Under the pieces are notes generated by a model. It searched no databases. It saw only the letters and a program-made list of their open reading frames with translations, and was not told where the DNA came from. DNA of 36,146 nt, taken from positions 1 through 36,146 of the forward strand of contig JAKQSG010000094.1 of assembly GCA_029563245.1 (NCBI GenBank), read 5' to 3'. The DNA comes from Candidatus Omnitrophota bacterium. Its GTDB lineage: Bacteria > Omnitrophota > Gorgyraeia > Gygaellales > Profunditerraquicolaceae. Made by a program: the position numbers and the translations under genes. Shown piece after piece: positions 4,021 through 28,600 of the stretch; positions within the stretch are counted from its first letter, which is position 1, and each line of letters begins with the position of its first letter.

Positions 4021-4023
4021 TTT

Positions 4024-6197: not shown

Positions 6198-6266
6198 CTG
6201 GCCTCCTTAAAAGGATTGTAAGATGAAGTGGCTTAACTGTTAGCTAAACTAAAGATATAGTATCAA

Positions 6267-6295
6267 AATGTAACATATTTTTAGGCAGAGGTCAA
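6267..6295 (-). promoter_or_regulatory. Sigma70-like promoter for the sugar ABC / glycosidase operon
   Basis: On the coding strand: TTGACC (6290-6295), a 17-nt spacer, then TACATT (6267-6272). This sits about 70 nt upstream of the SBP start, in the 104-nt gap after the PilZ gene. Confidence 0.45.
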
Positions 6296-6301
6296 GTTTT
6301 T

Positions 6302-6988: not shown

Positions 6989-6989
6989 C

Positions 6990-7346
6990 TTATAACCCTT
7001 TCCACCATTGATCTCTTAATTCTTTAAATGAATTATCGCGTATATACTCGGCTAACTTATCCCTATCAGCATCATTAATCCTGTTAAAATGAAGGCCGTA
7101 GGTATTCCTGCCCTCATATTCGCTCTGCCAGGCGACATGCGCTCCCAGATTAAGAGATAACGCATCTGAAATAGCCAAACTTATATTGGAGAAAACCTCC
7201 GAAAAAAGATTCTTAGACATCGTAAGCCGTACGCCGCTTAAACTTATATCCTCCACAGTACAAAGAAGCGGAGAAATGCGGTTTTCAATTGTAATCTCGG
7301 CTTCCCTACCAACCCTCATCCTGGGATAAACCCTGCGTTCTTCCAT
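6990..7346 (-). CDS. Single PilZ-domain protein (putative c-di-GMP receptor), paralogous to the N-terminal half of the next gene
   Basis: 118 aa with RRVYPR (RxxxR) and DISLSG (DxSxxG). It shares YGL(L/H)F..(L/I)(T/N)D.D(K/R)..., and a C-terminal WW motif, with domain 1 of ORF 6302-6988. A promoter-like element lies immediately upstream. Confidence 0.88.
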   Translation of the reverse strand: MEERRVYPRMRVGREAEITIENRISPLLCTVEDISLSGVRLTMSKNLFSEVFSNISLAISDALSLNLGAHVAWQSEYEGRNTYGLHFNRINDADRDKLAEYIRDNSFKELRDQWWKGL

Positions 7347-7376
7347 CTTTAAAACCCTCTCTTTGTGGCTACCTTT

Positions 7377-7403
7377 ATTATATCACCTTCTCCCAAAAGT
7401 CAA
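7377..7403 (-). promoter_or_regulatory. Sigma70-like promoter with extended -10 for the PilZ gene pair
   Basis: On the coding strand: TTGACT (7398-7403), a 15-nt spacer, then TGaTATAAT (7377-7385), which is a perfect -10 with an upstream TG. It lies about 30 nt upstream of ATG 7346, with a GAGAGGG SD in between. The short spacer lowers confidence in the -35 element. Confidence 0.5.
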
Positions 7404-7463
7404 GGCTTATAGGATTCTGCCATACTTAAGCTATCCCCATACATATCAAAAGGTTGCGACACT

Positions 7464-8039
7464 TTATTTCAAAAATTGTGACAAGGGAGGCATAGGCATC
7501 CCCTTGAACATAAACGGCAAAACAAAAGAAACTATAATGATAAGTAGCGGGATCCAAAGATCCAACCCTATATTGCTATCTTGAAATTCTGCCTTGAAAT
7601 TATCATTAGTAAGAAAAAATAACTGTGTAGCCAAATAGAAAATAAAAACAAATAATATCAGAGCGTATATATTCATAAAATCCAAGGCAACCATGTCGTT
7701 TGAACTGACCTTCACAAAACCTGAGTACAAATACAGCGCCTCTCCAAGAATAATAGCTATGCTAGAAATTATGGCCATTTTCCTAGCGCGCTGGTCCAGC
7801 CGCAGCAATAATAATCCTGACTTGAAAAGAGACAAAGAAGCAATAAAGATTACGGCAATAGATATCCTATCCATAACAAATAACGCAAACCAGTGCGGAA
7901 GATTTCTAACCTGCCTGTCTGTCATCCACCCTACAAGCACCCCCAAAAGAAATGGTAATGCATAAAACAGGGAATAGAGCCCGCCCATTATGATATTCAT
8001 AACCCCGAAAAACTTAATTTCTAAAGACTTATTGCCCAT
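7464..8039 (-). CDS. Small polytopic membrane protein of unknown function
   Basis: 191 aa with about 5-6 hydrophobic helices and no motif I recognise. SD GAGGAGAGGG lies upstream of the ATG. It starts 48 nt after the giant-gene stop, with no promoter or terminator between them. Confidence 0.7.
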   Translation of the reverse strand: MGNKSLEIKFFGVMNIIMGGLYSLFYALPFLLGVLVGWMTDRQVRNLPHWFALFVMDRISIAVIFIASLSLFKSGLLLLRLDQRARKMAIISSIAIILGEALYLYSGFVKVSSNDMVALDFMNIYALILFVFIFYLATQLFFLTNDNFKAEFQDSNIGLDLWIPLLIIIVSFVLPFMFKGMPMPPLSQFLK

Positions 8040-8087
8040 TTTCTATCCCTCTCCTCATACAACAGTTCTTTTCATTATTTACCCTCC

Positions 8088-11000: not shown

Positions 11001-14000
11001 TCCTCTCGGGAAGAAATCATTTATATTATATCCTCCCTTCAAACCCTGCCCTAATACTAAACTACCGGCGGGATCCTCTAACATGGCAAGGCACCTGGCG
11101 GCATAAAAAGCAACATTAAAGTTTCTGCTTCTTACTAATTTCTGGTAGCATTTATACAAATCTTCTTGCGTTATCCCGGCCATCTTAAGGTGTTCAGTTG
11201 GCTCAAGCATAATATCGTCACCTAAATAACAATTCTCCAGAAAATATTTCTCTAACCCCTTTTCTTTTCCTTCTTCATTAATATTACTTATTGCTATTAC
11301 TTCTTTAAGCGAACGATAAAATTCCATTCTTCTTGCATCAACACTAATACAGCCGTTATTTACAAAAACGCTAATTCCTATTATGAACAAACTAAACCAA
11401 TACCGTAACCCATTAAACCACCCCCTAAATGCTGCGTCCACCTTACCTTTTCTACCGCCGAACTTAAAATAACCCAGAAATATAACACCCAATAACGATG
11501 ACGTTGGATATACTGTTATAACATCTGCGATAAAAGCGCAGATTGTAGTCCAATGAATTAAGGCGACTGAAACCATAAAAGCTGCCAAAGCGCCTAAAAT
11601 AAGCGCACCAACCAACGAATGGCCTGATTTATTATGTCCTTCCTGTAAACTCTTGTCCCCCAAGGGCTGCAAAGCGCGAGAACCGTACCCACAATGGATG
11701 TTGCCGTCTCTAGTGAGAATAAAGTCGCCGGTAAGAAAATGCTCCTGTGTAAACCTGACCCTTTCTTCTTCAGAATCCTCTTTTCCTTTAGATAAAATTA
11801 CGCCCTCTACCAAGCTTATCTCAAGAAAGGCCTTGCTTATATCGACCCCTTCTTGAAGCATATAGAACCTTGCCTTATTATCTCCGGGCAGATTTCTATC
11901 TAAGGCAAATATTATTTCAGCCCTGGCACCGCATCTCTTCTCTTTTAAGAATTCCCTCAGGTCCCCGAAAGATGGAGTCAAATCATAGCCGGGATGGTAA
12001 TGGTATGAAAGAATAACTCTCTGAGAATGGGAAAGGTCAGGATAATAAACACCTAAGGTACTAACGCTTCTATCTTCCTTTAAAGTTAAAATCCTATGCC
12101 CGCCGGTTAAATGGGTAGTTCGTATTGCGCCTTTTCTGCTTTCTCTCTCAACGATCCTGCCGCTTATTTCATAAAACCACGGAAGGCGCGGATTAATAAT
12201 TCTATGCCTGGCAATAAATTGGTTCAGGGGGAGCTTCTTGCCTTTTGCCACCACAACAATATTCCACAAAGGTACCCCTTCCTTAAAGCTTCTCTCTTTC
12301 GGATAAATTTCAAAGACCCCAAGCCCACGGACATTCAGCACCCCTTCGTAATCCCCGGTAATCTCTAAAGATAGCGGGACATCAAGTACCCCGCTATCCT
12401 GGAAAAAGGTTATAATACTATCGCCGGTTCTAAACAGATTGCGGCGGTTAAGATTATCCGCTATCGCTTTCGTATATTTGCTGCAAAAAAGGCCTTCGTT
12501 TGAAACTACCCCCGGAATGAAATTATTTTCGATTGCTAAAACCTCATCCGTAAAAATAGCTCTTCCAAAGCTCCTCTCCTGGGAGGACCGGAATGATTCC
12601 TTAAGCTTCAGGTAACCTGGGCTTGTTAAAAGATCCCCGGCGCTTTTGACCTCGATTGCAAATGAATGAAATTTGATATTGATAAAGGTGGCAAACCTTG
12701 ATATCTCGGCAATCGCCTTCTTATTTTGGGAAAGGAATGAAAGGGCGGGGCTTTGAATAAAGAGCTCTTCAATAAACAGGTCTATTGACGCTCCCTGGAT
12801 ATTCTGAACCCTCCATTCCCTTCCCTCCCGGTTAAAATAAAACCAATACCAGATTATCGCAGCGGTATTCAGATAGAAATCTTCTTCCCCTCTCCTGCTA
12901 TTAGCTATTGCCTCATCAGAGTTTATTACAATATCATCACCTTCTGTTTCAAAATGGCCGAATTCATGATTCCAGATGCTAGCCGTTAGGGCATCGGATA
13001 GCTTGATCTTCTTTTCGCTCCTGGGATTAAAGATATATTCCCCGTTTTCATTTAATTCAACTTTAATATCCAAATCATTTTCAATAATGCAACAAAGATC
13101 CTGTATAAACCTCTCCGGGGTAACAAAATTAATAAAATTTCCTTCGTTGTCAAAACGCATCTGAAGGGTCCACAAATTACATAATGCCTTTGGCGGCAGG
13201 ATTGCTAACCCACCTTCATTACCTAGGGCAATGGGCTTCAAATCAAAGGCATGATAAAGCTTGGCAATATCTTCATTCTTAGCTTTTCCGTCAAGATGGT
13301 AGTCAATGCGCGCAGCTGCAATAATTTTAAATAGAAAATCGTTCCGCTCGCTTAAAGGTATATACCTGGAGTTAATAATCGGAGGCTTGCGGTAAACATA
13401 ACTTAAAAGGACTCTTAATATATTCCTTCGGTTATGACTCTTTAAGTTATGGAATAATTTCCTAAATTCGGGCAGGCTAATAGCAATAAGGATAGTCTCT
13501 AAGGCCTTGAAACACAGGGTTGAATTCTTCTCAGAGATAAATACGGCCTGGTAGAGGCGGGCTTTCCAATAACGGGGAGCCCCGCGCACCAAGTTACTGC
13601 TTGCCGCCCATTCCTGGTAAGCCCGGTTAAATGCATTCTGCCTATCTACGGAGTGGTTGATAAAACTACCGTGCTTAATCATAAATTCATTTACTTCAAT
13701 TGCCGCTTCTATCATATTTCTTAATATGGCAAGCTTATCTAGCAATCCCTGGCTATTTTTCTTAACTTTCTTAGGGATCGCCAACCCGGGGAGAAATTCT
13801 AAACTACGATTAATCTCGTTACGCATACCGGTAAAATCAGGCTCGCTAAGAAATGGCCAACTTAATAATCTGGTCAGTTTATCCTGCATAGTAGCAAGAG
13901 AAGACGGATCAAAAACCTTGCCCTGGGCAAGATTATTAACAAAACCTATCCTCTTCTGTACCCTGCTTAGACGCATGCTTGCCTTTAACCGTAACTGTTG

Positions 14001-17000
14001 GCGCCAATTATCCAGGCTTGCGTCCTCTCCTTCTATATCGGCTAGCCTTAAATCAATTAAAGGCAGGATTGCGTTTAGTGTTTCAAGTGCCAGATTTAAC
14101 CTGTTAAAAGAAAGGAAACCTAAGGCAGTCTGAAGCTTTCTGAAAACCTCTTGCTTATCTTCTAGATGGGCCCCTTTTACATATTTTACATAATCCGGTA
14201 TTTCGGATTCTATTTTTTCTTTACTTCCGATTTCTAGGGTTTTCCTTAAACGGATGCGAAACTTTCGCAGATCTCTCTCTTCAATAGCCAAAGAATTCAA
14301 TATCGCAGCCAATTTCCTCAGCCAACGGTAAAGAGTATGAGTTTCATATTTACCCCTGAACAATATGGTAATCCTACCGTTAGATTCTTCGGTTATGGCC
14401 TGCCTGGCTACTGCCTCTGCGCGCTCTTTCTTAAGGACTGCCTTAGCCTCTTCGGTAAGCTGCGAAGAGAGTTTAGACAATATTGAGCAGGCGGCAAATT
14501 CATTTCCCGCTTCAATAAACTTTATTATCTCTGGTGTTCTAATAAGCCCGGCATGCATTAACCTTATTTTTATGCCGGAGAGTTTTCTCCTTACGTCTTC
14601 TCCCGCTACCCGGGCATATGCAATACGCAGCAATTCATGGTGTATATTACGGACCTTACGCAGCATACCGGGGACGGTTCTTTCGCTTACAACACTAACA
14701 ATCCCAAAGAGTAAGGGAAAGGCCAAAATAATCCCCAGCGGTCCGGCAGTAGCGGGATGCGCAAAAAACCCAGAAAGACTAAATTCTAGCTGTGTAATCA
14801 ACGCTGCGATTGCGCTCCAGTTGGGAATAATAAAAAGAGTTATGAGAGCTACTAATCCCCCTAGACTAAGCAGAGAGACTAATATTTTACCGGATTGATT
14901 ATGGCCTTCTCCTAACCTTTTGCCTGCCAGCGTATTGGAAGACAAAGAACCGTCCCCATCACCGGCTAGCTTCAAGGTTGATATAATGCCTATAACCTCA
15001 CCCGCTGCATCTACTACCTGCCACTCCCTAATATCTACCTTTACAGTAGACTCTGCCGCCCTTCTAAAGGGGACAAAAGGTATGTCGGGAAGGTTTTCAA
15101 GGCGCTTCGATAATTTATCTTTTACCCGGGCCTCAGAGAGAATCTGGTTTTCTTCATTGACAAAAAACCAGACCGGCTGGCCGATCACCTGCTCTTCGCT
15201 AAATCCAAAAAGCTTCTCCCAGGCTTTATTTACCCAGACAATATTTCCCTTACTGTCAATCATATGTACGGCCAAATCAATGTTGTAATACTTATCCTTC
15301 TCTTTACCATATATGGAACGCATCGCCGTAGAGCAACGCTGGAGATAATCCGGAATGAGGTTATGCACAGCCTCATCCGCAACAATAATAGTAGTATCCA
15401 GTTCGCGAATAATCTTAGCCAAAGGAGAATCCGCTTCCTCCAGAGACTCCCGTAGCATCTGGGCCTTTTTCTTTCCTAGAACTAAAACAATTACCTGGGG
15501 CTTCTTAGCTGCGGTAGGTTTAATTATATCCGCTAACCCGAGTGTCCAGGCAAAAGGATTCTTTTCTATATCGGGATAGCTCTCATGGCTAGAAGACATC
15601 ACCTCGGGAGTAAGCCGGACCTTAACCAGCCTCCCCGCCGAAGAAGGATCTGCCGTAGTTCCCGGAAAATTAAAACCAAAATGTCCGTCGGCACCTACAC
15701 CTGAAATTATCAGGTCAATGCCTCCTGCCTTATTTTGTCTCTCTACATACCCTCTTGGATCAGGACTATCTCCGATAAAACTTACATTATTTTCTATGGA
15801 ATTAAATATTCTTGAAAACAATGATTCCCTTAATGCGTAGGCTTGTGAAAAATGATGCCCCGGGCCCAATCCTGCGTATTCACTTAGCTGCCAGGCTCTT
15901 ACCTTATCATCCCAGTTGAAATCCTGCTTTCTTAAAGCCAGATGCTCCGCAAAACTGGGTATACTTCTTGGGCCATATTGATAAGGTTTGGTGATAGTAC
16001 TGCCTGCGCCAAAGGTAATATTGGCATGGCCTGATTTTTCGATAATATCCTTAATAATGCCCGATACCACATCGGAAGAAACCATGGCAAAATTCGAAGC
16101 TTCAACGATATGGAACTTCAACTCGCGCAAGAGATTAACCGCAAAAATCGTTTCATTCCCCTTACCGTGCTGAATTAAATCACACAAACAAAGTATAGCC
16201 TGGCACTTAAAATCCTTATGTTCTTGCGCTAAAAGAATAATTAACTCATAAAGAGAATTACAAAAGGCTGCGATATCTTTTATTTTATAACGATCCAACT
16301 GCCTGTTATCCGCTTTATAGAGAAGCTTAACCAGATTATCCGCACAATAAGAGATGCGCACAGCGGAAGACATAACAGAAAGCACAGATCCCAGCCACTG
16401 CTCTTTATTCTCCGCTACGACCTTAACCAAAGAGACCCAGGCAGGCTCTGAAAAAGCTTCCTCTGTGCTTGCTAAAATATGTTCAATAAGCATTAAAGAG
16501 GCCATATTACTACGTACCGGAGAGCGTACCAAAACTCCCTTAGGCGCGAGTTTAAGCTCTGTCTTCTCGCCAAAATTCTGCAGTTGTACAATCTGGCTTA
16601 AAAAATGAAGCATAACTATCTTTACGCGCGCCTGGGCATGGCGCCAGGATGGATGGTATTTATAGGCATTTATAACACGCAACAGGTTCTTAATATAAAC
16701 CTGCCCTTCACTAGGGGTGCCGGAGACGACTTTTTTATAATCATCCGCAAGGCTGCTATCCAGGGCAAAATACTTAAGATTAATCGCTCCCAAATACCTG
16801 CAGAAAATAAAATAAATTAAGGCGCAGGAGAAAAATCCGGCGATTGCCATAGCTACGTGTGAGTATCCTAATAATACCGGAATAAAACATGCTGAGAAAA
16901 TTACAATAGCAAAAATAGAATGCAGGCGTTTTTCAGAATCGAACCTCTTTTTAAGATGTATTTCCCCGTAATTGGCTATAACAAAATGGTCCTCGAGAAA

Positions 17001-19622
17001 CAAACTTGCCGGGCTATCCTGAATTTTCCTGGCAAGCTCAAAGAAACCAAAATTAATGATGTTCTTTGCCCTGTCTAACCCCCGGCGCTCCAGATCTCTC
17101 GCATACCAATCCCCCCAATTCTTAATCTTGCTTTTCTCTTCGGGTGAAAGACTGTTATAGGCATCCACTTCTCGCCTTACCGCCTCGGCCTCGCTCTTAA
17201 GGTTAGAATGTTTTTTCGCCTCGTGGCGGATATACATATATATCAACCCTAAAGGCGCCGGATGCTTCGGATTAAATAATATATTGGAGAGGTAAGTCTC
17301 TTTCCCGCGGTAGCTGGTTGCCAAAGCATTGTTCAGGCGGGCAACCAAAAATTTAACCCCTTCCTGCTTTTGCCTGGCGATTTCTTCTTTTAAATAATCC
17401 GGGGTATTATCAATAATTAAATAATCCTTAAGTTCCTTTAAAACCTCTATAATTTCCGGATTTACCGCTCCCTTTTTGCGTAAGAATGAGGCTGCCTGCA
17501 GATCAGAACTATCCCTAATTCGAGGTAAGGTAGAATCCCAAACGTACTCATCATTTAAAGGTGCATAATCAAAAACATAATTCCCTTTATCATCAACCGC
17601 TACCGGCCTATATACATTAAAGGAAGCTTCCTTCTTCTCAGAAGATTTGTTTAAAACAGATTGCCTAAAGGACAAGCTCTTTCCCCTGCCCTCAACCCTC
17701 GATAGCATTGATTCAGCAAGGTGGGTCGGAAAATCCCTCTTTTCATATTCATTTAGGCTTTGCGGCCTAAGGAAACGGTAGAATTTACCGGAAGAAAGCA
17801 GGAAGAAAGTGAAAATAGTGGTAAAAAATATTCCCTCCCAGCTAAATTCAGGATTTAAACCTGAGAAAAATGATAAAACCAGAGGGGCAAAGGCTAAACC
17901 ACTAAACCCGGGAATCAAATCAGTAGCCTTAAACTTAGTCAACTGCTCAATAGAAAGCTTTTTTACCTCATAGTATTGCGCCGGAGGGATACTATTGTCT
18001 TTCGACATCCAATCAATTAAACCTGCCCTTATATACCCTTCCCCATCTACGGGCCAAATGGGTAATCCCTGAAGGCTAATACCAGAAATATCAGTTTTCC
18101 CAAAAAGCCTTTTTAAATGCTCAAGCCTAAACTTCTCAAAAGCATGAATCCTGGCTGCCCAGTAAAATGGACCATTCCTTGAAAGTAAAAATTCCAACTG
18201 AGGCTTGCCTTTTTGCAAAGCTGCCCGCTTTAGATTATTTACCCACCTAACCGCTCCTTCTGCCTGACCAATCCTTTTAGCCTCAGCAATAATAAACTCT
18301 TCCACATCCCTCAATGTCCTTCGCGCATACCCCTTAATAGTATGCACACGGATATCATAGGCATACTGATCATCCTCTCCGGGAATAGGATAAAGTCTTG
18401 GATGTTGCCTTAAAAATAAACCATGGCTTTTAGCCCATTCTTTGATATCTTCACCTAAAATATTCCTGCCATTTAAGGGCTCATTTATCCCCAAGGCCTT
18501 CATAGCAACGCTAACAGGCAATGCCAGCCTTGCGCTATTAACCCAACATTCATTAAGGCTTCCCAAATAATTATGCCTGGCCAGGAAAGTTATCACCTCT
18601 GCATTCAATTTTATTACATCAAGTGAGGCATAGACGTTTTCGGGAGTGTGGCTACCTATCAACACCATCACCCCATTCAAGAAAACATCCTCAATCAGCT
18701 TATAAAAAACTGGGTAGAAATCTTCCAGGGGAGATAAAGAACGCACAAATTTAACATAATCCTTAGCCTTCTCCCGCATAAATACATAATCGTCTCCGGG
18801 AAGTTTTCCGTGCAGGAAATTTTTGAGCGGATCAAATCTTTCTTCTACTATTTTTATTAAATTACTGGTTTGTCTTAAGAACTGCGAAGTAAATATTTTT
18901 AATGGGTCATTTAACCGCAGGGAGGCAGCCTGAAGAGCAATACCAGCTTCTTCATCCTGCTGAGATTCATGAATCCAGACCTGCTCGATAACAAACTGGC
19001 TGGAGAATTTGGTAGGCAAAAGTATATCTTTAATTCTTTGTGCGTCTAAATTCCACTCAACCCTTCCTAAGCCATCTCTAAAAGCAACCACGCTTGAATA
19101 ATCAATATCCCCAAGTAACATCTGCTTATTTACCGGCGGGCCGTTAATCTTGCCCGAAGAAGCAATGTAATCCTCCAGCAACTCTAATGCCCCTGCCAGA
19201 TTAAGAAAACCTTTAGATACACTGGGTTCGCCTATAAATTTATCCGCTGCCATGCGCATTTCAGTGGAAGATATGGGATGAGAATATCCGGCTGACCTAG
19301 CCTGAGCAGGGGCAGAGACTAGAATAAATACCCCTATAGCAAATAATGCGGGGTATCCTCCCAATAAGAAGGGTAAAGCCATAAACCCTAAAGCAAAAAT
19401 CCGGCTTATCTTCAGGGTTAATTCTGTTGCCCTTATTCTATCTAATCCAAGGCTTGAAATCATTAATGAACGGAAGATCCTTCCCCCGTCAAGCGGGAAA
19501 ACCGGGAGAAGGTTGAATAACCCCAGCATAAGATTGGCATAAGAGATACTTACTAAAAGACCAAGCCAGCTGCCTAATCCAATATGCCATGCTGTAAAAG
19601 GAGCAATGAAAAACAGGGACAA
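8088..19622 (-). CDS. C-terminal 3,844 codons of a giant mosaic membrane protein: M50 C-terminal half, NagB/6PGL-like, PAS, JAMM/MPN, HEAT array, hydrolase-like domain, Pro/Asn-rich tail
   Basis: An uninterrupted 11.5-kb frame. Translated motifs: NLLPVFPLDGG (19483-19521), GVGADGHFGFNFPG (15661-15722), PAS-like IDSKGNIVWVNKAWEKLFGF, HEFGH (12954-12968), JAMM HYHPGYDLTPSFGD (11961-12002), many D..VR..A...L HEAT repeats, and DWHSWGT (8896-8928). The track start is a TTG with no SD, placed inside a transmembrane helix, so I do not think it is a real initiation site (see findings). Confidence 0.9.
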   Translation of the reverse strand: MSLFFIAPFTAWHIGLGSWLGLLVSISYANLMLGLFNLLPVFPLDGGRIFRSLMISSLGLDRIRATELTLKISRIFALGFMALPFLLGGYPALFAIGVFILVSAPAQARSAGYSHPISSTEMRMAADKFIGEPSVSKGFLNLAGALELLEDYIASSGKINGPPVNKQMLLGDIDYSSVVAFRDGLGRVEWNLDAQRIKDILLPTKFSSQFVIEQVWIHESQQDEEAGIALQAASLRLNDPLKIFTSQFLRQTSNLIKIVEERFDPLKNFLHGKLPGDDYVFMREKAKDYVKFVRSLSPLEDFYPVFYKLIEDVFLNGVMVLIGSHTPENVYASLDVIKLNAEVITFLARHNYLGSLNECWVNSARLALPVSVAMKALGINEPLNGRNILGEDIKEWAKSHGLFLRQHPRLYPIPGEDDQYAYDIRVHTIKGYARRTLRDVEEFIIAEAKRIGQAEGAVRWVNNLKRAALQKGKPQLEFLLSRNGPFYWAARIHAFEKFRLEHLKRLFGKTDISGISLQGLPIWPVDGEGYIRAGLIDWMSKDNSIPPAQYYEVKKLSIEQLTKFKATDLIPGFSGLAFAPLVLSFFSGLNPEFSWEGIFFTTIFTFFLLSSGKFYRFLRPQSLNEYEKRDFPTHLAESMLSRVEGRGKSLSFRQSVLNKSSEKKEASFNVYRPVAVDDKGNYVFDYAPLNDEYVWDSTLPRIRDSSDLQAASFLRKKGAVNPEIIEVLKELKDYLIIDNTPDYLKEEIARQKQEGVKFLVARLNNALATSYRGKETYLSNILFNPKHPAPLGLIYMYIRHEAKKHSNLKSEAEAVRREVDAYNSLSPEEKSKIKNWGDWYARDLERRGLDRAKNIINFGFFELARKIQDSPASLFLEDHFVIANYGEIHLKKRFDSEKRLHSIFAIVIFSACFIPVLLGYSHVAMAIAGFFSCALIYFIFCRYLGAINLKYFALDSSLADDYKKVVSGTPSEGQVYIKNLLRVINAYKYHPSWRHAQARVKIVMLHFLSQIVQLQNFGEKTELKLAPKGVLVRSPVRSNMASLMLIEHILASTEEAFSEPAWVSLVKVVAENKEQWLGSVLSVMSSAVRISYCADNLVKLLYKADNRQLDRYKIKDIAAFCNSLYELIILLAQEHKDFKCQAILCLCDLIQHGKGNETIFAVNLLRELKFHIVEASNFAMVSSDVVSGIIKDIIEKSGHANITFGAGSTITKPYQYGPRSIPSFAEHLALRKQDFNWDDKVRAWQLSEYAGLGPGHHFSQAYALRESLFSRIFNSIENNVSFIGDSPDPRGYVERQNKAGGIDLIISGVGADGHFGFNFPGTTADPSSAGRLVKVRLTPEVMSSSHESYPDIEKNPFAWTLGLADIIKPTAAKKPQVIVLVLGKKKAQMLRESLEEADSPLAKIIRELDTTIIVADEAVHNLIPDYLQRCSTAMRSIYGKEKDKYYNIDLAVHMIDSKGNIVWVNKAWEKLFGFSEEQVIGQPVWFFVNEENQILSEARVKDKLSKRLENLPDIPFVPFRRAAESTVKVDIREWQVVDAAGEVIGIISTLKLAGDGDGSLSSNTLAGKRLGEGHNQSGKILVSLLSLGGLVALITLFIIPNWSAIAALITQLEFSLSGFFAHPATAGPLGIILAFPLLFGIVSVVSERTVPGMLRKVRNIHHELLRIAYARVAGEDVRRKLSGIKIRLMHAGLIRTPEIIKFIEAGNEFAACSILSKLSSQLTEEAKAVLKKERAEAVARQAITEESNGRITILFRGKYETHTLYRWLRKLAAILNSLAIEERDLRKFRIRLRKTLEIGSKEKIESEIPDYVKYVKGAHLEDKQEVFRKLQTALGFLSFNRLNLALETLNAILPLIDLRLADIEGEDASLDNWRQQLRLKASMRLSRVQKRIGFVNNLAQGKVFDPSSLATMQDKLTRLLSWPFLSEPDFTGMRNEINRSLEFLPGLAIPKKVKKNSQGLLDKLAILRNMIEAAIEVNEFMIKHGSFINHSVDRQNAFNRAYQEWAASSNLVRGAPRYWKARLYQAVFISEKNSTLCFKALETILIAISLPEFRKLFHNLKSHNRRNILRVLLSYVYRKPPIINSRYIPLSERNDFLFKIIAAARIDYHLDGKAKNEDIAKLYHAFDLKPIALGNEGGLAILPPKALCNLWTLQMRFDNEGNFINFVTPERFIQDLCCIIENDLDIKVELNENGEYIFNPRSEKKIKLSDALTASIWNHEFGHFETEGDDIVINSDEAIANSRRGEEDFYLNTAAIIWYWFYFNREGREWRVQNIQGASIDLFIEELFIQSPALSFLSQNKKAIAEISRFATFINIKFHSFAIEVKSAGDLLTSPGYLKLKESFRSSQERSFGRAIFTDEVLAIENNFIPGVVSNEGLFCSKYTKAIADNLNRRNLFRTGDSIITFFQDSGVLDVPLSLEITGDYEGVLNVRGLGVFEIYPKERSFKEGVPLWNIVVVAKGKKLPLNQFIARHRIINPRLPWFYEISGRIVERESRKGAIRTTHLTGGHRILTLKEDRSVSTLGVYYPDLSHSQRVILSYHYHPGYDLTPSFGDLREFLKEKRCGARAEIIFALDRNLPGDNKARFYMLQEGVDISKAFLEISLVEGVILSKGKEDSEEERVRFTQEHFLTGDFILTRDGNIHCGYGSRALQPLGDKSLQEGHNKSGHSLVGALILGALAAFMVSVALIHWTTICAFIADVITVYPTSSLLGVIFLGYFKFGGRKGKVDAAFRGWFNGLRYWFSLFIIGISVFVNNGCISVDARRMEFYRSLKEVIAISNINEEGKEKGLEKYFLENCYLGDDIMLEPTEHLKMAGITQEDLYKCYQKLVRSRNFNVAFYAARCLAMLEDPAGSLVLGQGLKGGYNINDFFPRGTVSSGDDQNEIRNYVRMQAAFALARLEDPTAIGHLQYLLSKESNSISAVRVYAAYSLSIFDDLEALEILIKYSADPDRSVRLECLRGLLMFSDPRLFDIFVDALKDKKIDAVDIAISGLSVSGNKRAAVYLENIIQESKSANTRSKALAALYRFEGDRVLNLALAKVRDNAEEVRMTALSILSQLNGLDAREALISGLNDRSHLVRMTAALGFWGGKFDKTQAPDLIARLLKRERNSDVRLLYIGILGESNDNAAREALRNIIRGGNLREAQAAILSSAFNADDKMVHQLADLVSDSREEIRQVSVAALHTRIDDPVIFNKVFERMGDVSLRVASSAAVVLSTQINNHPELKSKLIGFMDRGDLETRLGILSGLSQAGSPIAVEFAKPYLNSQDLALKQMAVFSISQLVDHNTLPLLSPLASDIDPSVRLSAIRGLAMINSSETVPLLVKALKDEQFPVRQAAISGLAQRIHDSPHLTFTIRPFLRDDHWQVRQAAVEALGKSTHSNVPEILLPTIQDESVFVRQAAVANLARFDTPEVIKSMLPLLKDRDVFVRRDTIVALGSKVCAHLELAEPIKEAAKVDSDEIARRYANYALECGKNEGINHGPVKIRSMQILIPGFDDFYLFVTARNQEIDWSNKHPLKDMLERIGVTSRAFNWSGNIQDTFSARSRVLDFFLENVRDAARMRVDIDMDWHSWGTPIGTTIFSGSPKATEAFRLAREAGIKINISCLGSPDMLHRVSFLENKYKETVKIINLWSPADRLSFPSVPVNLGVKGNIGIPETSHNDWFDYSMGNRFIRMKFPDLDMPQIHRMIKQSNPIGWIYRPRVGSWPGMYNFNSVAPLGHFRQAGNINISPALSEMQRFRAPDNYYLHQGLLSSQAFRASMLPGAIFQNNFRPLPSGQLNFNVYNNNRIIMPPTIKFRAPSITVPKFAPITVPRSNFVNPGITPRIPTYIPPIRYTPPPMRNLN

Positions 19623-22600
19623 AACAATACTACACCCAGGGAAAGATTAAACAACGGACCGGCAAAGGCTATCCTTTTTTCTTGGCGCGGCGTAAAACCA
19701 CAACTCTCCAACGTAGCCACTCCTCCTAAAGCCGTAAGGAGAATCTGGGTAGCGCCAATTCCGTATTTCGCGGCCGACTTTATATGGGCAAATTCATGCA
19801 TAGTAACCAAGGTAAAAATAGAGAATAGAAAAGCTAAAGCAAGAAAACCGTTGCCTGCCGCTAATCCCAAGGCAAAAAAGAAGCTCCAATGTAATTTAAC
19901 CGGAACTTGGCTTATCTTAAAAAGTGTAAACCCTTCATTGAATTTGCTAAAGTATACCCCGGCATGCATCTTAACGGCATCCCCTTCATCTTGAACTCCT
20001 ACAAATTCGCCATTACCATTACGATACGAAAAATACCCAAACTCCCTTTCGCATCCGCTGATTAAATAATGATTAAATAAGACTCTCTTAAAAAAGCCAT
20101 TCTGAGTAGGGGTATGCCCGACAATAAACCAGCAGCTTTTGCTATCATAACCTAAAGCCTCCAGAAAACTGCTTAAGTCATCTTGGGAATAAGAAAATAC
20201 TTCTTCCCCTTCAAGAGAATATTCACAAAAACGCCCCATCAGCAGATTGACTAGCATAGAATTCTTTAAATTGGTAGTAGAGAGATTCCTGATCTTCTGA
20301 AGTTTAAATCTCCCCTTAACTGGCCCGGCATGGGCAGCGACCAGATTATCGGCAATGAGAAGAACCGGGCTTGCCTCTACAAACTTTCTATAAAGATCAA
20401 GGTACTTAGATCCAAAACGATCTTCCAGGGCCTTACGGTAAGGGATACTCTGATCAATAATAAACCCGCAAGGCCCGCTTTTGCTCCAATGATAATTAAT
20501 CAAATCGTGATTACCCAGAATATAATAAAAATTATCCGGATTACTTATCTTTAAATCCATAATACGGCGCATCAGTGCTATAGAGCTATCTGGGTTAGAA
20601 TACAAATCTACAACTAGACCTTCCAGATCTTGCCTTTTCACCCCAGTCTTGGCCCATTTAATGAAATCACCCATTTCTACCCTAACATCCGGAGTCGCAT
20701 GTATGGCATCGCCGAGAATAAATAAGGCTGCCTTTTTATTTCTTATCTTCTCTAAAACAGAGTCTTCCAGGATTTCTTTGCCTTCCACCGTAATTCTCCT
20801 ACGATGGTTCAATAGAGCGTCAAATTTATTGACCCTGCCGTGTAAATCTCCTATTATGATAATTTCAAAATCGCCGGGTGCCTTGCGTAAATCAACTACC
20901 GCCCTGTCCTGATACACGCCAAGCCTCACTGCCTTGATAAACTCGTTTAACCTTGGCAGCTCACTATCAGTTTGCAAGCTATACATGCAAAATACTGAAG
21001 ACCCGCTAACACCACCTTTTATATTTGAATCACTCCAGGTCTCTTTATCCTGATCCCAAACCCTTCCCTTGGAATAAATCTTTAGGCCAGCAAGTCCCTT
21101 GAAAGCATGATTCTTGAAAGGATGTGCGTTAGAAGTAACAAACCCTTTACCCTTGTCCATCGCACATATATAAAGATTATTATGATTTTTATTAAAGAAA
21201 ATAACGATCTTCCCTAAATCATCCCCGTGTCTCCCTACATTAATAGACAAGGCATTTATAAGTTCGCGCAGCCTTTCTAAATCTTTGCCTTCAATCAAGC
21301 CATCTAAAGCAAACACAGCCTCAGGCAAAATATACATTCCACCGCTAAAAATTAAATACCCGTCTTCTTTTAATCTCTCAACAAATGCCTCAGTCAAAAT
21401 CTTTTGTTTATCACTATTTAACCCATCCGCATTATTCCAAATACGCATAAGATTAAGGCAGTCCTGGATAAATATCTGACTCTCTACTCTACGCTTTTCT
21501 TCAGTTCTATTCCTTTTTAAATAGTTAAGCCAACCTAAATCCGGCCTTAAACCGATAGAATTATCTTCCAAGAATTTAATATGGCTGGACAACAGGTGAT
21601 TATCCCTAAGATACTCTAAAGTTCGCTCTCTGACCCTCTCTTCAGATAATCCCGGGTTAACCAAATGATAGAATTCATGGCCTGAGAATATCGCCCTTAA
21701 TTGTTCCGGAGGACCCCGCAAGGTATTAGGGTTAATGCGAAGGATACCATTTACCACCTCAGCCGGAAAAGGTAAAAGATAGTCGATAGCTATCTTATCC
21801 ATACCCAAAACTAAGCCTTCTCGCATAAGAGCGTTTATTCCTCCAAGATAATCAATTATATTCCCAAATTCCCCCTCAGAAGGATTACGCACCAATGAAT
21901 CAACCCCCGCAGGATTCATATGCGCAGGATAAGATTGATGGCTACTATCATTCTGAGAGTAAAGGTTGGCAATAATAATGATTGCCCAAACCGATAATTC
22001 AGGATATGAATAGAGCGCACGGAAGGTCTCGTCATTGGCAACAGCAACCGTAGCCTGAAAGATAGCCTCGTTGTTTTTTATACCTAAAAGGGCATTATTA
22101 TTTTTCTGACGATTTAAGAATAATATTAAATCCTCCACGGAAAGATTAAGTTCTGACCCTTTACGGTAAGGCCTATCTGCAAGCATAATCTCTGCTATAT
22201 CCGCCCAATAGATCAGTTCCCCTAAGAAACGTAACTTCGCATCCTTTATTGCCTGAGGATGATGATGATTTAAGACAAGCGACAGGACTTCTTCTGAAAC
22301 ATCTAACTGCAGCTCATTAATTATTTCTACGGAATAACCTGCATGGGCATTAATCAACTTACGCTGAGGATCATTTTCATCGCGCGAGATTTTCTTATCC
22401 GAAGAGATAAGCTCCCATATTTCACTGTTAAAAATCTTCCCCAGGTCATACAGGGTAAAGGCAATCGCAATTATATCGATATCTCTTCGGCTTAAATTAA
22501 GGATTTCAGCAATCTCTACGGCAATTATCCTCCCCCTATATATATGCCTTATCAGATGATCCAGGTCACCGGATAATCCCTTCATATCAAATACGCTACG

Positions 22601-25600
22601 GTAAAGACCAGCGATTCCTTTTATCTTCAGAATATCGCTATTCGTAATTACTCCATCCTCTTTAGGGCTTACGCCGATTAATTTTAGGGCCGCTGCGAAG
22701 GACCGATCCCCACCAGCCACGGAAGGTAGACCAATCGCTTGTTTATTCCGCAGCAGCCCGGTAAACGAAAACGCTTTCTTTAAGGCTAAAATAAAAGACC
22801 CCCGCTTTCTGCCGGGGCCTCTTTCTATTTTTACGTACCTCTTCCCCAAACTGACCCAACCGCCATCAAAATACCTCAAGAAGACTTCTAATTCCCATAG
22901 GCCGGGATTAGGAAGATAGATCTCATTGTTAAGATAATAATTGCCGTTAAAGAATATATTACCCCGGCAGAATAGCCTGGCCTGCAAAGGCACGCTGCCT
23001 CTTTGATCTCTTAGACGGTATAAAACCTTTGCCTCTATATTCCTTCCTGCCTCTCTATCTAGCCTGGAAACAGCCCTGATACGCTTTTCTGACCCGAAAC
23101 AATCAAGCATAAGCCTGGTATTCCAGGTGCGGTTCTTTAACCCAAGAGTTACCCTGGCTGCCTGTGTCAAACTTGTTTTATAGGTCTTACCCCGGGCAAG
23201 CGAAACTGAGTTAATACTAACAAAACTGGCCAAGTTGCCGGCAGTAGACAGGATTATTCTTTCTGTGGCTTTTCTTATCATGGACAAAAATAGTTCCCTT
23301 CTCCTCCCTGGCCTGCCGTGTAACTTATTCAGGTATATCCTTGAACGCAAAGCGCTTATCCCCATGCTAAAAGCACTGCTCCAGAAACTCATGGTTGATG
23401 TCTCCGGGGAATCAATCCAGAGGATAGGCATCTCTCTTAATCTATACCTTAATGCAGCAGCCCTGCCCAGCCATTCAACATCTCCGGCAAAACCGTAGAC
23501 GAAATCATGGTTAAAACTTACCTTAAGACATCCTGATTCATCGGCTGAAAGAATACCTATCGGAGAGATGCGTTTTATGACCTTTCTACGGAACGCCTTA
23601 AAAGAACGCTGATTATCGCGGATAAACCTCAAATCTTTATATAAAAACCTAACCCAGGCATTAAAACCTACCGTCCCCAAACGGCGGGTGAATTTACGAA
23701 GAGAGACTATCGCTCCGGGTTTACGTATAGAACCCCAAACAAGATCATCCCCCTTATTTACTATACCTTCTAATAATAGCCCGGTCAGCCCCAGGTGGGC
23801 CGAAGGGTCTCCATCGGTATACATTATGATATCCGCCCCCTGGTCTGCGGCTATCTGCATTCCGGCAGCCAGTGCGCCGTGCTTGACCGACCCCATGGCT
23901 ACCTTATCCTCCGCCGACAAGGAATAAAGGCAGATTTTATCCCGCAAATCAACATATTCGCTGCGGCTTAGAATCCCCCGCAATACATCCACTGTCTTCT
24001 GCTGCCCCTGCCCACTGTCATCTCCGTCGTTAACAAATATAAAACGGCCTTTTACCAGAGGGTTCACAGAGAGAAATTCCCTGAAAAACTGCTCTGTCTT
24101 TAACTTAAACCATCCCCTTCCCAGTGGAGGATCCGGGTATTTAGCCTGCCCCCTCCAAAGAGAAATGCATACGGCTATCTCTAAAGGATCGTGGATATTG
24201 AAGACTGTCAGATAAGAATCGATGAACATTCTCGCTTCAGGAAGGATTCCTTTGCTTGGATCAGATACTAATTCTTTAAGAAAAACAGCAATATCTTTAG
24301 CATCGTTACGGTTTAGGGAAATGGCTAATGCCTTACTCAACAAGGCGCATATTGCCTGGTCGGAAAGCACCGCCCTGATTTCAGGGTCGCGATAAGTATC
24401 GACTGCAAATAAATGCAAGAGATTAAGCTTGGCGTCTATTGTTTTACATTCAGAGAAAATAATACCTAAGCGGCTGGCTCTATCCTCTGATAAAAGAACG
24501 CGCCTTAGGCTTTCTCCCGTTAATAAATCAACAGCCTCTCCCCACCAGGGCTTATTAAAATCCTGCATCATCCTTGAAAATTCCAGCATTAAGGCCTCAA
24601 CCGCATCAGCCTTTTCGCTGGAGTTATTAAGAAGGTCTAGGCTCAGGATAAACCAACGGGCAGCATCCCATCCAAACGTACCTATTCCCAGCACATTGGG
24701 TATCGATTCTAATTCCTTTCTACTAAGTTTATTCTTGGTATAAAGCTGATAGCCTTTTAACATAGCGATAAGATTCTCTCGGCTGTATTTCCTACCAACA
24801 CCCTTTCCTCCGGCAAGCAGGGTATTCTTAAACTCCCCTATGCGGGGCTGGCTTGAGCGCGCTTTTTCCCAGTCAAAAAGCGCAATTACAGAATCACCAT
24901 CCCATTTTACATTGCCTAAACTTAAATCACCGTGCAGGATAGAAGAAGGCAGGGAATTATAAGATACATCCGACATCTCCTTAAGAAGATGCTGCATCTG
25001 CTCCTTGATAAACCTGGCAAAGTTTAGAAAGATAAGTTCTCCTTCTTCAAGAAAAGGATTATTCTGCAACTTCTTCTCCAAATTTTCAAAGTCAGAGAAA
25101 GCAGTGATAATATCCTGCGGAGATAATTCCGGCTTGCTGCCGCTAGCCCTGAAGCCCAAGAAAGCATTGTGCAAGAGCGCCGTTAACCTTCCAAGGCTAT
25201 AAAAGTGCTTTGGGGTAGCCTGACTAAAATTAAGTTCTATACCGGATGAAATGTAGTCTTCTAACGTATAATACCAGCTGCCTATCTTAGTAAAATATTC
25301 CCCGCCCCTATTTTTATAAACCAACGGCACAGGAATACCAAAAGATATAGCCCTTTGTATGACCGAAATCACAAATTCTGCTTTTCTACGGCTATCGGTA
25401 ATAAACTTTAAAACAAAGTCACCCTTAGGCGCATGGATTAAAACCGGCCTTCTATTCTCGATTCCGCCCCGTAGAAACTCGTATGTGACCTGCGAAACTT
25501 CACTGGCTCCTATATCGTATTCGGATAGCGCTATGGACAATTTCTCTTCAATATCAACCTGTTCCGTGCGTAGATCGTTTACTTTTGTAGAATGGCTGCG

Positions 25601-28600
25601 CCAGAGTGCAACTTTATTATTAATAGGCTCAGCCTGGGGTTGATAAGGGACAAAGGCATTTCTGTAAACCCTATTGTATTTCTGGGGTTCTCCAGATTCA
25701 TTAAGAAAAGCGAATTTTTCAATCTGCCCGCTTCTAACAATATCAAACATCGGCTTGCCTTTTTTAAATCCGAATTCAGGTATTTCATCTGCTGGCTTGA
25801 CTAAACGTATCAAAGGAATATTCTTGTATCTTGGGTTGGGGATAAACTCAGGGTTGCCGTCTTTACCTTTAACCACCCAGTAAGGAGCGCCATTATGGCG
25901 TTTGATATATTTAAAGCTTGATTGGGCGTTGGTTGAGACCCAGTCAGTCATTACAAATGGAGTGTTACCTATATTAATAGTGATATGTTGATATCCCGGA
26001 GGAAATAAAACATGATCTCCGGGTTCAGCAAAGACTGCCATCACATCCTCTATTTCTTCGTATCCCGGTTTATCGATTGAACTGTCTTCTTCGGGATAAT
26101 TGTGCCTTACCTTAAAAAGCAGGAATATATTACGGCCGTAGTTATTTTCGTAAACCTCGGGAAGGTTAGTCTTGTGATGATGGCCTTCGGTACGGATATA
26201 TTCTTCATAGCGCACACCGTTTAAAAATGCGGGTATTGTTCCGGCAGGTAAAACAGTGACATCGGGCCTTAAGTTATGCGCTTTGATACTATCCCAAAGC
26301 TTCTGGTCATCCCAATAAGGACCCTGTTGGCCGCAGTAAAGTACCTCGTTAGGGTCGCCGTATCGGGTTAAATCTGGCTGCTTAGTAATGTTGCCTTGGC
26401 TGTCTGTATATTCATAAGCCATCATCAGGCTCTTCCACAGGGGAGCTTGGGACATGGTATTTGCTCCGAAGGTCTTATACCAAGGTTGAACCCAAATTCT
26501 TGCCTGCGGACCATAGAGCACTTCCATATCCTTAGGGTCAACAAAACAAGGCAACCCAACCTGTGCCGATAAATCAAGCGTTTTAAAGAACCTGGCTGTA
26601 TCGGCTAAAGCCTTAGCCTCGTCAAACTCATAATTAATTAAATGGCTTTTTAGCTCATGGTAAAATATCTTTTTCTGAAGGTATCCGGATAATTCAAAGA
26701 AATACGGATGGATGTAAATAGTTCTGGCAGCAATATCGCAGGCAGCGACGTTTCCTTGCGTAAAGTTGAAATCATTTGTGCTAAGTAAACGCCAGACGTA
26801 TAAGGAAGGCGGTGCGCGGCCTAAAATGACTTCCAACTCTTCCAAAAGCTTAATTATAACTTCTTCTCTGCCTCGGATTAACTCCGAGGAGAATTTTCCT
26901 CTTAAATTAAACCCTGCCACTTCCACTGCCCCTGACTGCCAGTTCTTACCAAATTTATTAACAGATGCTTCCTGCACTTTAGCAGAGACAGGGAGAGGAT
27001 AAGCATTAGGATTGTTAATATTGGGCGTATCCTTTAACAGCTGCGGGAAGAAACCGCTTGAGTTATATTCCTTAAAAAGATACCTGAGCCTCAAAGATAA
27101 AATCTCGGCTATATTAGGATGAGCATTCTTTGTCTGATAGTACGCCGCTTCCAGGAAAAGAACAACCCCTCTTATCCCGAGATACTCTTCCAAAGCTAAG
27201 AATATATCTTCAAAGACGATGCCAAGGCCTTCGTTAATGGCGATGATTACCTCCGATTCCCTTATTTTCTGAATTAACCCGCCGAAAGAGGCTATCTCTA
27301 TCCTGATCATACCTCCGTCTGGCTTAATCTTGAAATCTTTTAGAGTTACGAAACGGGGGTACAGCCTTCTCTCAAAAAGGCTATCAAAAGCTATAATACA
27401 CTGCATAAGATTTATTTCGTCGTCCTTAATATCCAACAGCTCGGATAAGAACCTCTTATCCTCATCGCTTAAAGACTGAAAGCCTATCTTAGAAAGCTCC
27501 CTCTCCATGGACAAACGATGGCTTACGTAAAGGTGGCTGTCCAACCCAAACCTCTCTGCGATTACCCTGTAAACATCCTGAGCAGGAGTATAATATCTGA
27601 TCAAAGATTTGGCGATCTCTCTCTTTAGGCGCATCATATCTTCCCCGGACAAATCCTTCCCCAGATACCTGCCCGTAGACAATACCAGCTGCAGGGAAGG
27701 AGTAGAGAACATTTCCCTTATCTTCAATCCCACATAATCCCCTTCAGATATAGAGATATACGATGCCCCCCTCAAGACAATAGGGTCGTAAGAATGGCTC
27801 AACAGCCGATACTCCTGCATCGCTCTCTTGAATCCGATTCTTGCCAAGACTAATTCAGCATTCTTTATCTGGATACCCGAATCAATTAAATACCTTGCCA
27901 CCAGTTTTCTGGATTCCCCCCTGACTTTCTCCCCTCCGGCAAAACAAACCTCAAGCCCTGATATTCTTCTCCCGGAAAGATCCCTAAAATCCTCCTCTAA
28001 TTCCTCATAATCAGTCTCTGCCCTCAAATCCTTGACATTTTTAGTGATGTCAAAAGAAAAATCTTCCCTTATCCTGAAAATGTCCTTAACAGAATTATCA
28101 ATATATTTCCTGAGTTCCTCCTCCCAGCCATATTTGTTTTTATTGCAAGCTTTGGCCCAGTCACAGACCCTCTCCCTGGCCTTCTGTAATTCACATATAA
28201 ATAAATCAGCCTGCTCTGGTATGAAATCATGCCACTTAAAAACCTGGCCCAAGTCCAATGCGCCTACACGTCCCACCGAAGGATCGTAGCCGTAATTCTC
28301 AGGCTTAATATCGAAATTTATTATTCCTCTTAATATCTTGGCCCTGATACTTAATAACCAACAGTCTATAAGTAATTTGGCTTTGTCTAAATCACCCTCC
28401 TCTATAGCCTCGGCTAGAATGCCGTGGCATCTTCTTGCCTTAAGATCAAAATCCCACAATCCTTCCTCGAATAACACTGAAACAAATTTCTGCACTACTG
28501 CCCTTTTTACCGTTTCATGGCTTACCCTTCCTTCCTCATCAACCACATTTATTTCCAGGTCATCGAAAGTAAGGTATCTTATAGCTAAATGCCCGTGGTA

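What the first reader, a model, noticed from the sequence alone, without database searches (positions are those of the whole stretch)
19480..19810. An M50/site-2-protease domain is split across the overlap of the two giant ORFs, implying one gene with a -1 frame change (indel, real frameshift or recoding)
Seen in sequence:
- ORF A ends with VKLHWSFFFAL...TMHEFAHIKSAAKYGIGATQILLTALGGVATLE...AFAGPLFN (HEFAH at 19784-19798) and stops at 19574.
- ORF B, in the -1 frame, begins with ...ANLMLGLFNLLPVFPLDGGRIF (19483-19521).

Established knowledge: in M50 peptidases the HExxH and the downstream NxxPxxxLDG Asp ligand belong to one membrane-embedded active site, so neither half is complete alone.

Further observations:
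- ORF B's TTG start (19620-19622) has no SD and sits inside a hydrophobic helix.
- Both frames are open together for only 70 nt (19577-19646), a stretch that contains T4 and T5 runs.

Inference: the likeliest explanation is a single-base homopolymer error or strain-level indel. A genuine -1 slip on GUUUUUC, or a truly split protease, remains possible. I saw no convincing downstream stimulatory hairpin.
Basis: partly seen in the sequence, partly recalled or inferred. Interest (0 to 1): 0.8.

Follow-up and report, generated by a model that had tools for sequence, protein, structure and literature searches.

The report
One-base deletion splits a giant gene
The two giant reading frames are one very long Omnitrophota gene broken by a single missing base inside its membrane-protease domain, so this is an ordinary sequence error or recent mutation and not a recoding signal or a deliberately split enzyme.

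Summary
On the minus strand, ORF A (stop 19574) carries the HEFAH/AGP half of an M50 site-2-protease domain. ORF B (TTG 19622, -1 frame) carries the NLLPVFPLDGG half. Each half passes Pfam's cut-off alone. Joined, they align in one stretch to the M. jannaschii S2P structure and give a confident six-helix S2P model. The break falls in the middle of one transmembrane helix.

A sister Omnitrophota species (74-77% identity, three independent assemblies) reads straight through. Its DNA alignment puts the defect at the third base of a Phe codon, in the T4 run at 19621-19624. A Logan assembly of the same species (99.98% identical over 17 kb, no gaps) calls a 4118-aa ORF that runs 274 codons past the junction. 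The window has 24 stops in that frame over the same stretch.

There is no slippery heptamer, no stimulatory RNA structure, no Shine-Dalgarno before ORF B, and no conservation of the split. dN/dS is low on both sides.

Verdict: one gene of more than 9,367 codons with a non-programmed 1-nt deletion. Only reads can tell a consensus error from a very recent strain-level mutation. Interest is low.

The parts
19574..36146 (-). ORF A: the upstream part of the giant gene. The ORF listing reports it as 19574..36112 (5512 aa), but the frame is open to the window edge.
   Evidence: Pfam finds methyltransferase, PRPP-synthetase N domain, PGM/PMM I-IV, HAD, cupin-type GPI, APH kinase, Metallophos and the M50 N-half. 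There is no hydrophobic segment before the M50 domain.
8088..19646 (-). ORF B: the downstream part of the same gene, in the -1 frame. The frame is open from 19646. The first start codon is TTG at 19622, giving 3844 aa.
   Evidence: It holds the M50 C-half, a PAS domain and HEAT repeats, with further TM segments. There is no Shine-Dalgarno before the TTG.
19287..19921 (-). The complete M50 / site-2-protease membrane core. It is encoded across the frame break: FKISQVPVKLHW ... GVVLF | LSLFF ... FILVSAPAQ.
   Evidence: PF02163 scores 64.9 bits when joined. It aligns to 3B4R_A in one stretch, E = 4e-23. The AlphaFold model has pLDDT 89.2 and pTM 0.82, with the junction (residues 100/101) inside helix 78-106. 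Foldseek matches 3B4R_A with TM 0.80 and SpoIVFB. Residues invariant in 56 homologues lie on both sides of the break.
19784..19798 (-). HEFAH zinc-binding and catalytic motif (in ORF A).
   Evidence: H42, E43 and H46 are invariant in the 56-sequence alignment.
19482..19514 (-). NLLPVFPLDGG motif carrying the third zinc ligand (Asp codon 19490-19488), in ORF B.
   Evidence: N137, P140, P143, D145, G146 and G147 are invariant.
19621..19624 (-). T4 run where one base is missing. The window reads GTA GTA TTG TT- TTG TCC. The sister species reads GTG GTG CTA TTC TTG CTT.
   Evidence: DNA alignment. The repaired peptide GVVLFLSLFFIAPF is colinear and gap-free with the orthologue's AVVLFLLLFSIAPF.
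19577..19646 (-). The 70-nt stretch where both frames are open. Any frame correction must lie here.
   Evidence: In the window, frame B has 24 stops in the 274 codons upstream of 19622, and frame A has 289 stops downstream of 19574.

Best explanation
ORF A and ORF B are two pieces of one giant gene of more than 9,367 codons. It is a multi-enzyme, membrane-anchored protein of the kind found in Candidatus Omnitrophota. The M50 site-2-protease core is the first membrane-embedded module seen in the part of the protein held by the window.

The window sequence lacks one base at the third position of a Phe codon, in the T run 19621-19624. This shifts the reading frame by -1 in the middle of a transmembrane helix. 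The break is not programmed. It is either a consensus or assembly error in this record, or a very recent mutation private to this strain. I lean slightly towards error, roughly 55:45, and only reads can decide.

Shown:
- The domain is one unit.
- The position of the missing base.
- Contiguity in the sister species.
- A called ORF in another assembly of the same species whose length requires an open frame through the junction.

Inferred:
- That the intact protein is what the organism makes.
- That the domain is an active intramembrane protease.
For: 1. One domain. Each half exceeds the Pfam cut-off, and the joined sequence scores 64.9 bits. It gives a single-stretch alignment to MjS2P 3B4R residues 8-209, E = 4e-23. 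The model has pLDDT 89 and matches 3B4R with TM 0.80, with the junction inside one continuous helix. Invariant residues are split between the ORFs.

2. Sister species. L001 (JAQTTQ010000029.1, Ca. Omnitrophota STB_44) is one open frame of 3779 codons across the whole contig. P0002 and P0003, from two further assemblies, match the joined query in one stretch.

3. Position. The DNA alignment shows a single 1-nt gap in the window at TTG TT- TTG.

4. Same species. Logan contig SRR21285873_50048 is 99.976% identical to window 1-16988 with no gaps. Its giant-gene call is 4118 aa and ends exactly at the contig end. That is 274 codons past the junction, which is impossible with the window's frame B and its 24 stops.

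5. Selection. dN/dS is 0.125 upstream and 0.207 downstream of the break, and ORF B stays open for 3844 codons.

6. No signals. There is no in-phase slippery heptamer, the downstream RNA fold has z = -0.28, and there is no SD before ORF B.

7. Precedent. West-Roberts et al. report single-base indels that break Omnitrophota giant genes. [quoted passage not shown]
Against: - I could not read the junction DNA of the same-species Logan contig. Its intact frame is inferred from the called product length and the contig coordinates.
- My exact guess of that 4118-aa product is not in the protein collection, so that contig differs from the window somewhere in the unseen 3.4 kb.
- The window shows no other indel against ten other assemblies over 17 kb. 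It also carries a private 4-SNP haplotype at 12876-12957. It therefore looks like an accurate sequence of a distinct strain, which favours a real mutation over an error.
- T4/T5 is a short homopolymer for a sequencing error.
- If the true codon is TTC, as in the sister species, the lost base is not part of a homopolymer at all.
Confidence: 0.88

Rival explanations
1. The frameshift is real in this strain and is tolerated. ORF A and ORF B are made as two polypeptides, with ORF B starting by re-initiation at TTG 19622 or ATG 19529 near the ORF A stop. The two membrane halves reassemble into an active split S2P.
For: ORF B is fully open and well conserved. The ORF A stop lies 46 nt after the TTG and 45 nt before an in-frame ATG, which is a geometry compatible with termination-reinitiation. 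The window looks like an accurate sequence of a distinct haplotype. That membrane proteins can reassemble from fragments is general knowledge, not tested here.
Against: The cut falls inside a transmembrane helix rather than in a loop. Neither candidate start has a Shine-Dalgarno. The split is absent from the sister species and from another assembly of the same species. The out-of-frame tail CPCFSLLLLQHGILD shows no sign of adaptation. ORF B products with starts at 19622, 19529 or 19463 are not on record in any public assembly.
Confidence: 0.06
2. Programmed -1 ribosomal frameshifting, or transcriptional slippage, in the T-rich stretch joins the two frames at a set efficiency.
For: The frame relation is -1, and the 70-nt overlap holds T4, T5 and T4 runs. 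A P-site slip of tRNA-Phe on U UUU U at the T5 run is conceivable.
Against: No X XXY YYZ heptamer is in phase anywhere in the overlap, while such heptamers occur by chance 24 times in ORF A. The downstream 140 nt fold no better than shuffled sequence, z = -0.28. The orthologue has CTA TTC TTG CTT at the site, in frame and not slippery. An assembly of the same species is in frame. T runs of 4-5 are too short for known transcriptional slippage, which by established knowledge needs about 8-9 or more. A junction at the T5 run would give CPCF, with a proline in the helix, where the orthologue has LLLF.
Confidence: 0.03
3. The T run is a phase-variable contingency tract that switches the downstream 3,844 codons on and off within the population.
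For: Two length states appear to exist among closely related assemblies: split in the window, intact in the Logan contig.
Against: By established knowledge, a tract of 4-5 T is well below the length at which slipped-strand mispairing is frequent. The sister species has no homopolymer at the site. Only one split observation exists.
Confidence: 0.02

Closest known systems
Site-2 protease core without PDZ domains: Methanocaldococcus jannaschii MJ0392 (PDB 3B4R) and Bacillus SpoIVFB (PDB 8VJL/8VJM); Pfam PF02163, MEROPS family M50
   Same: It has HExxH in a transmembrane helix and NxxPxxxLDG in a later helix. It has a six-helix core with a membrane-reentrant beta hairpin. Identity to 3B4R is 32%, with TM-score 0.80. 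The nearest sequence relatives are stand-alone M50 proteins of 250-400 aa, many with CBS domains, at 34-42% identity.
   Different: Here the core sits in the middle of a protein of more than 9,300 aa, between a Metallophos domain and a long unannotated region. No CBS pair was detected after it. In the window sequence it is interrupted by a frameshift.
Archaeovorin-type very large proteins of Candidatus Omnitrophota (West-Roberts et al. 2023, bioRxiv 10.1101/2023.11.21.568195)
   Same: The closest relatives are from Omnitrophota. It is a mosaic of HEAT repeats, methyltransferase, PGM/PMM, glucose-6-phosphate isomerase and HAD domains with scattered TM segments. Sugar-import genes lie downstream, as that paper describes. 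The paper also reports the same artefact: two adjacent giant ORFs became one gene after an assembly error was corrected.
   Different: The part inside the window is about 9,367 codons. This is below the paper's thresholds of more than 10,000 aa for 'large' and at least 30,000 aa for 'giant', although the gene runs off the window. Neither that paper nor the 2026 Omnitrophota preprint mentions an M50 domain. They discuss C39 and S8 peptidases.
Programmed -1 ribosomal frameshift sites (for example dnaX, IS elements, viral gag-pol)
   Same: Two long overlapping ORFs in a -1 relation with a short T-rich overlap.
   Different: There is no in-phase slippery heptamer, no stimulatory structure and no conservation. 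Relatives are simply in frame.

Membership tests
Peptidase M50 / site-2 protease | HExxH motif (two His zinc ligands plus the catalytic Glu) within a hydrophobic helix | tested here: met
   HEFAH at 19798-19784, inside predicted helix 26-51. H, E and H are invariant in 56 homologues.
Peptidase M50 / site-2 protease | NxxPxxxLDG motif supplying the third zinc ligand (Asp) | tested here: met
   NLLPVFPLDGG at 19514-19482. N, P, P, D, G and G are invariant.
Peptidase M50 / site-2 protease | Profile match above the curated cut-off that spans both motifs | tested here: met
The two stretches cover profile positions 1-103 and 159-218. The alignment to 3B4R is a single stretch.
Peptidase M50 / site-2 protease | S2P membrane-core fold | tested here: met
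   The model has pLDDT 89.2. Foldseek matches 3B4R_A with E = 5e-12 and TM 0.80 over 225 columns, and SpoIVFB with E = 1e-7.
Peptidase M50 / site-2 protease | Both halves of the active site on one polypeptide | tested here: not met
   This is not met in the window as written, because of the frame break at 19621-19624. It is met in the sister species and implied in another assembly of the same species.
Peptidase M50 / site-2 protease | Intramembrane proteolytic activity on a transmembrane substrate | not testable with these tools
   This needs biochemistry. No substrate has been identified.
Programmed -1 ribosomal frameshift | Slippery heptamer X XXY YYZ in the upstream frame, within the overlap | tested here: not met
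   None is found between 19700 and 19577.
Programmed -1 ribosomal frameshift | Downstream stimulatory hairpin or pseudoknot | tested here: not met
   Region 19640-19500 has an MFE of -32.8 against -31.8 for shuffles, z = -0.28. Pseudoknots were not modelled.
Programmed -1 ribosomal frameshift | Conservation of the two-frame arrangement in relatives | tested here: not met
   The sister species (three assemblies) and a same-species Logan contig are in frame.
Archaeovorin-type Omnitrophota giant protein | Omnitrophota origin, with a multi-enzyme mosaic, HEAT repeats and TM segments | tested here: met
   The only close relatives are Ca. Omnitrophota records. Domains are listed and TM segments.
Archaeovorin-type Omnitrophota giant protein | Length above 10,000 aa ('large') or at least 30,000 aa ('giant'), as defined by West-Roberts et al. 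| tested here: inconclusive
   At least 9,367 codons lie inside the window, and the frame runs off the window edge.

The most novel reading that the evidence does not exclude
The M50 core is an active, in-cis intramembrane protease of the giant polyprotein. It would cut at the repeated boundary modules, 'GDGS...L.EGHN(Q/K)SG' followed by a transmembrane hairpin, that separate enzyme cassettes. Cassettes would thus be released or regulated. The frame break in this strain would be a real, recent event that uncouples the cytoplasmic enzyme half from the membrane half. Nothing here tests cleavage.
Probability: 0.08. Interest if true: 0.6.

Novelty: not a real feature. Interest (0 to 1): 0.12.

Why it matters
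For annotation, the two ORFs should be merged into one gene or flagged as frameshifted. The M50 domain should not be reported as two partial proteases, as a split enzyme or as a recoding site. The case also shows that very long Omnitrophota genes are easily broken by single-base indels, which understates their true length in databases. The only mildly new biology is incidental: a complete S2P-type core embedded in a multi-enzyme giant protein. The two papers on Omnitrophota giant proteins that I checked do not mention this.

Tried and rejected
- JGI metagenome scans: two scans, one with an M50 alignment and one with a 900-aa junction query, found no relatives.
- IMG/VR: an exact DNA-pattern scan across the junction, allowing 0-2 extra bases, found nothing.
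- Word-indexed protein searches: two searches returned no near-identical proteins. They returned only a distant Metallophos hit and stand-alone M50 proteins. The index seems to lack the long proteins that the exhaustive search found.
That exact sequence is not in the collection. The 10-kb flank limit stops about 1.6 kb short of the junction.
- ORF B products starting at 19622, 19529 or 19463: none is on record. I could therefore not show the split in any other assembly. This negative is weak, because other strains differ from the window by at least one residue in ORF B.
- Short-flank look-up of the 191-aa neighbour: I used it to expose the other long contigs, but it listed only one of them.
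- Accession search in the paper library, to learn the sample type: no hits.
- T5 run or GUUUUUC as the shift site: rejected, because the orthologue alignment and peptide colinearity favour the T4 run.


Full report
**1. The observation**

On the minus strand the window holds two very long ORFs: 19574..36112 (5512 aa) and 8088..19622 (3844 aa).
- ORF A's frame has no stop between 36112 and the window edge, so the gene starts outside the window.
- ORF A ends ...TMHEFAHIKSAAKYG...AFAGPLFNLSLGVVLFCPCFSLLLLQHGILD*.
- ORF B, one base upstream in phase (-1), reads LSLFFIAPFTAWHIG...ANLMLGLFNLLPVFPLDGGRIF.

**2. The two halves are one M50 domain**

- Pfam PF02163 scores 35.6 bits on the ORF A tail (profile 1-99) and 36.7 bits on the ORF B head (profile 159-218). 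The cut-off is 27.2 bits. The joined sequence scores 64.9 bits.
- The joined 213-aa segment aligns in a single stretch to residues 8-209 of the M. jannaschii site-2 protease 3B4R, E = 4.4e-23. It also aligns to SpoIVFB.
- In an alignment with 55 stand-alone homologues, the invariant residues lie on both sides of the break. H42, E43, H46, G88 and P89 are in ORF A. N130, F136, N137, L138, P140, P143, D145, G146, G147 and R148 are in ORF B.
- An AlphaFold model built from that alignment is confident (pLDDT 89.2, pTM 0.82). It places the junction, residues 100/101, inside one continuous helix spanning residues 78-106.
- Foldseek matches the model to 3B4R_A (E = 5e-12, TM 0.80, 225 columns) and to SpoIVFB.

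**3. Relatives read straight through**

- A scan of GTDB species representatives found one relative, L001 (JAQTTQ010000029.1, Candidatus Omnitrophota bacterium STB_44). It is 74% identical over all 900 residues of a junction-spanning query.
- Its whole 11,340-nt contig is a single open frame of 3779 codons. It contains HEFAH and PLDGG 101 residues apart in one frame.
- The exhaustive HMMER search found two more long proteins that match the query in one stretch across the junction. They are P0002 (MFA5437889.1, 'site-2 protease family protein, partial') and P0003 (MDD3987654.1).
- In the M50 region they are identical to L001. The comparison therefore amounts to one sister species seen in three assemblies.
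- All other M50 hits are ordinary proteins of 250-400 aa, many with CBS domains, at 34-42% identity.

**4. Where the defect is**

- Aligning the DNA gives a single one-base gap in the window. The window reads GTA GTA TTG TT- TTG TCC CTG. L001 reads GTG GTG CTA TTC TTG CTT TTA.
- The missing base is the third position of a Phe codon, inside the T4 run 19621-19624.
- Restoring it gives GVVLFLSLFFIAPFTAWH, which is colinear and gap-free with the orthologue's AVVLFLLLFSIAPFEAWH.
- A join at the T5 run would instead give CPCF, with a proline in the helix.

**5. The same species elsewhere**

- The neighbouring 228-aa PilZ protein occurs on 16 public contigs. The 191-aa neighbour occurs in 28 blocks of the collection.
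- Ten of these loci are 99.7-100% identical to the window, with no gaps at all.
- One is Logan contig SRR21285873_50048 (51,499 nt). It is 99.976% identical to window 1-16988.
- The giant gene called on it has a 4118-aa product. Its stop is at record position 39,143, and 4119 codons reach exactly to position 51,499, the contig end.
- That frame is therefore open for 274 codons beyond ORF B's TTG. In the window the same frame has 24 stops in those 274 codons.
- The Logan contig must therefore differ from the window by a net +1 (or -2) bases within the 70-nt dual-open stretch. In other words, it is intact.
- I could not read that stretch directly, so this point is an inference from the coordinates.

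**6. No sign of design**

- There is no X XXY YYZ heptamer in phase in the overlap.
- The downstream 140 nt fold no better than shuffles, z = -0.28.
- ORF B's TTG and the next ATG lack a Shine-Dalgarno, while the six downstream genes have purine-rich GGAGG/GAGGG-type motifs.
- Against L001, dN/dS is 0.125 for the 622 codons upstream of the break and 0.207 for the 1644 codons downstream.
- ORF B is uninterrupted for 3844 codons. The break is therefore either not real or very young.

**7. Error or mutation?**

- For an error: West-Roberts et al. describe single-base indels that throw Omnitrophota giant genes out of frame. They also describe two adjacent giant ORFs that became one gene after an assembly error was corrected. 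The site is T-rich.
- For a real mutation: the window has no other indel against ten assemblies over 17 kb. It carries a private four-SNP haplotype at 12876-12957 that three other assemblies lack. A gene this long is also a large mutational target.
- I put it at roughly 55:45 in favour of error. Only reads can settle it.

**8. What the gene is**

- Within the window, the protein starts with about 5,400 residues that have no hydrophobic segment. This part carries methyltransferase, PRPP-synthetase-like, PGM/PMM, HAD, cupin GPI, APH kinase and Metallophos domains.
- The S2P core follows as the first membrane module seen in the window. After it come further TM hairpins, a PAS domain and HEAT repeats.
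- Downstream lie two PilZ genes, a sugar ABC importer and a glycoside hydrolase.
- This fits the 'Archaeovorin' description of Omnitrophota giant proteins with polysaccharide import genes downstream.
- Neither paper I checked mentions M50.

**9. Verdict**

This is one gene with a non-programmed single-base deletion. Novelty and interest are low.

Noticed in passing
window 14688-15002 and 11340-11735 (minus strand); also P0152/P0003 of the sister species: A conserved boundary module, 'GDGS-x5-8-(P)L-x4-7-L-x-EGHN(Q/K)SG(K/H)', is followed at once by a transmembrane hairpin. It occurs twice in ORF B and four times in the sister-species protein P0152 (MDD5665061.1). In P0152 the extra copies bracket two additional cassettes, one of about 500 aa and one of about 1000 aa. 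The NCBI record names P0152 an ASKHA domain-containing protein. Cassettes seem to be gained or lost at these modules.
   Followed up: partly
window about 35273-35695 and 26573-26965 (minus strand): A module with VAACDI...PYFF...YHEL.SH, which looks zincin-like, occurs twice in ORF A, with the VAACDI motif at residues 212 and 3122. The two copies are 46% identical over 90 residues, E = 1e-23. No Pfam family matched it.
   Followed up: partly
window 36113-36146: ORF A's frame is open to the window edge and its listed TTG start has no Shine-Dalgarno. The giant gene therefore begins outside the window and is longer than 9,367 codons.
   Followed up: no
window 12876-12957: Four clustered SNPs (12957, 12939, 12938, 12876), one of them D/N-changing, separate the window from three other assemblies: Logan SRR21285873, JGI 3300010346 and ENA ERZ27249658. 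Those three share the alternative alleles. The rest of the 17 kb is identical.
   Followed up: partly
window 863-8039: Downstream of the giant gene, on the same strand, lie a 191-aa protein with no family match, two PilZ-domain proteins (118 aa at 6990-7346 and 228 aa), a sugar ABC importer (a binding protein plus two permeases) and a 769-aa GH2-like glycoside hydrolase. This layout matches the 'polysaccharide import downstream of giant genes' pattern reported for Omnitrophota.
   Followed up: partly
loci L002-L021: This species recurs at 99.7-100% identity in many unrelated public assemblies: Logan SRR21285873-79 and SRR29782965/68, JGI 3300010346 and 3300009675, ENA ERZ272496xx and ERZ7950xx, and NCBI GCA_020047475.1. 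Yet the word-indexed protein search returned none of its giant-gene fragments.
   Followed up: no
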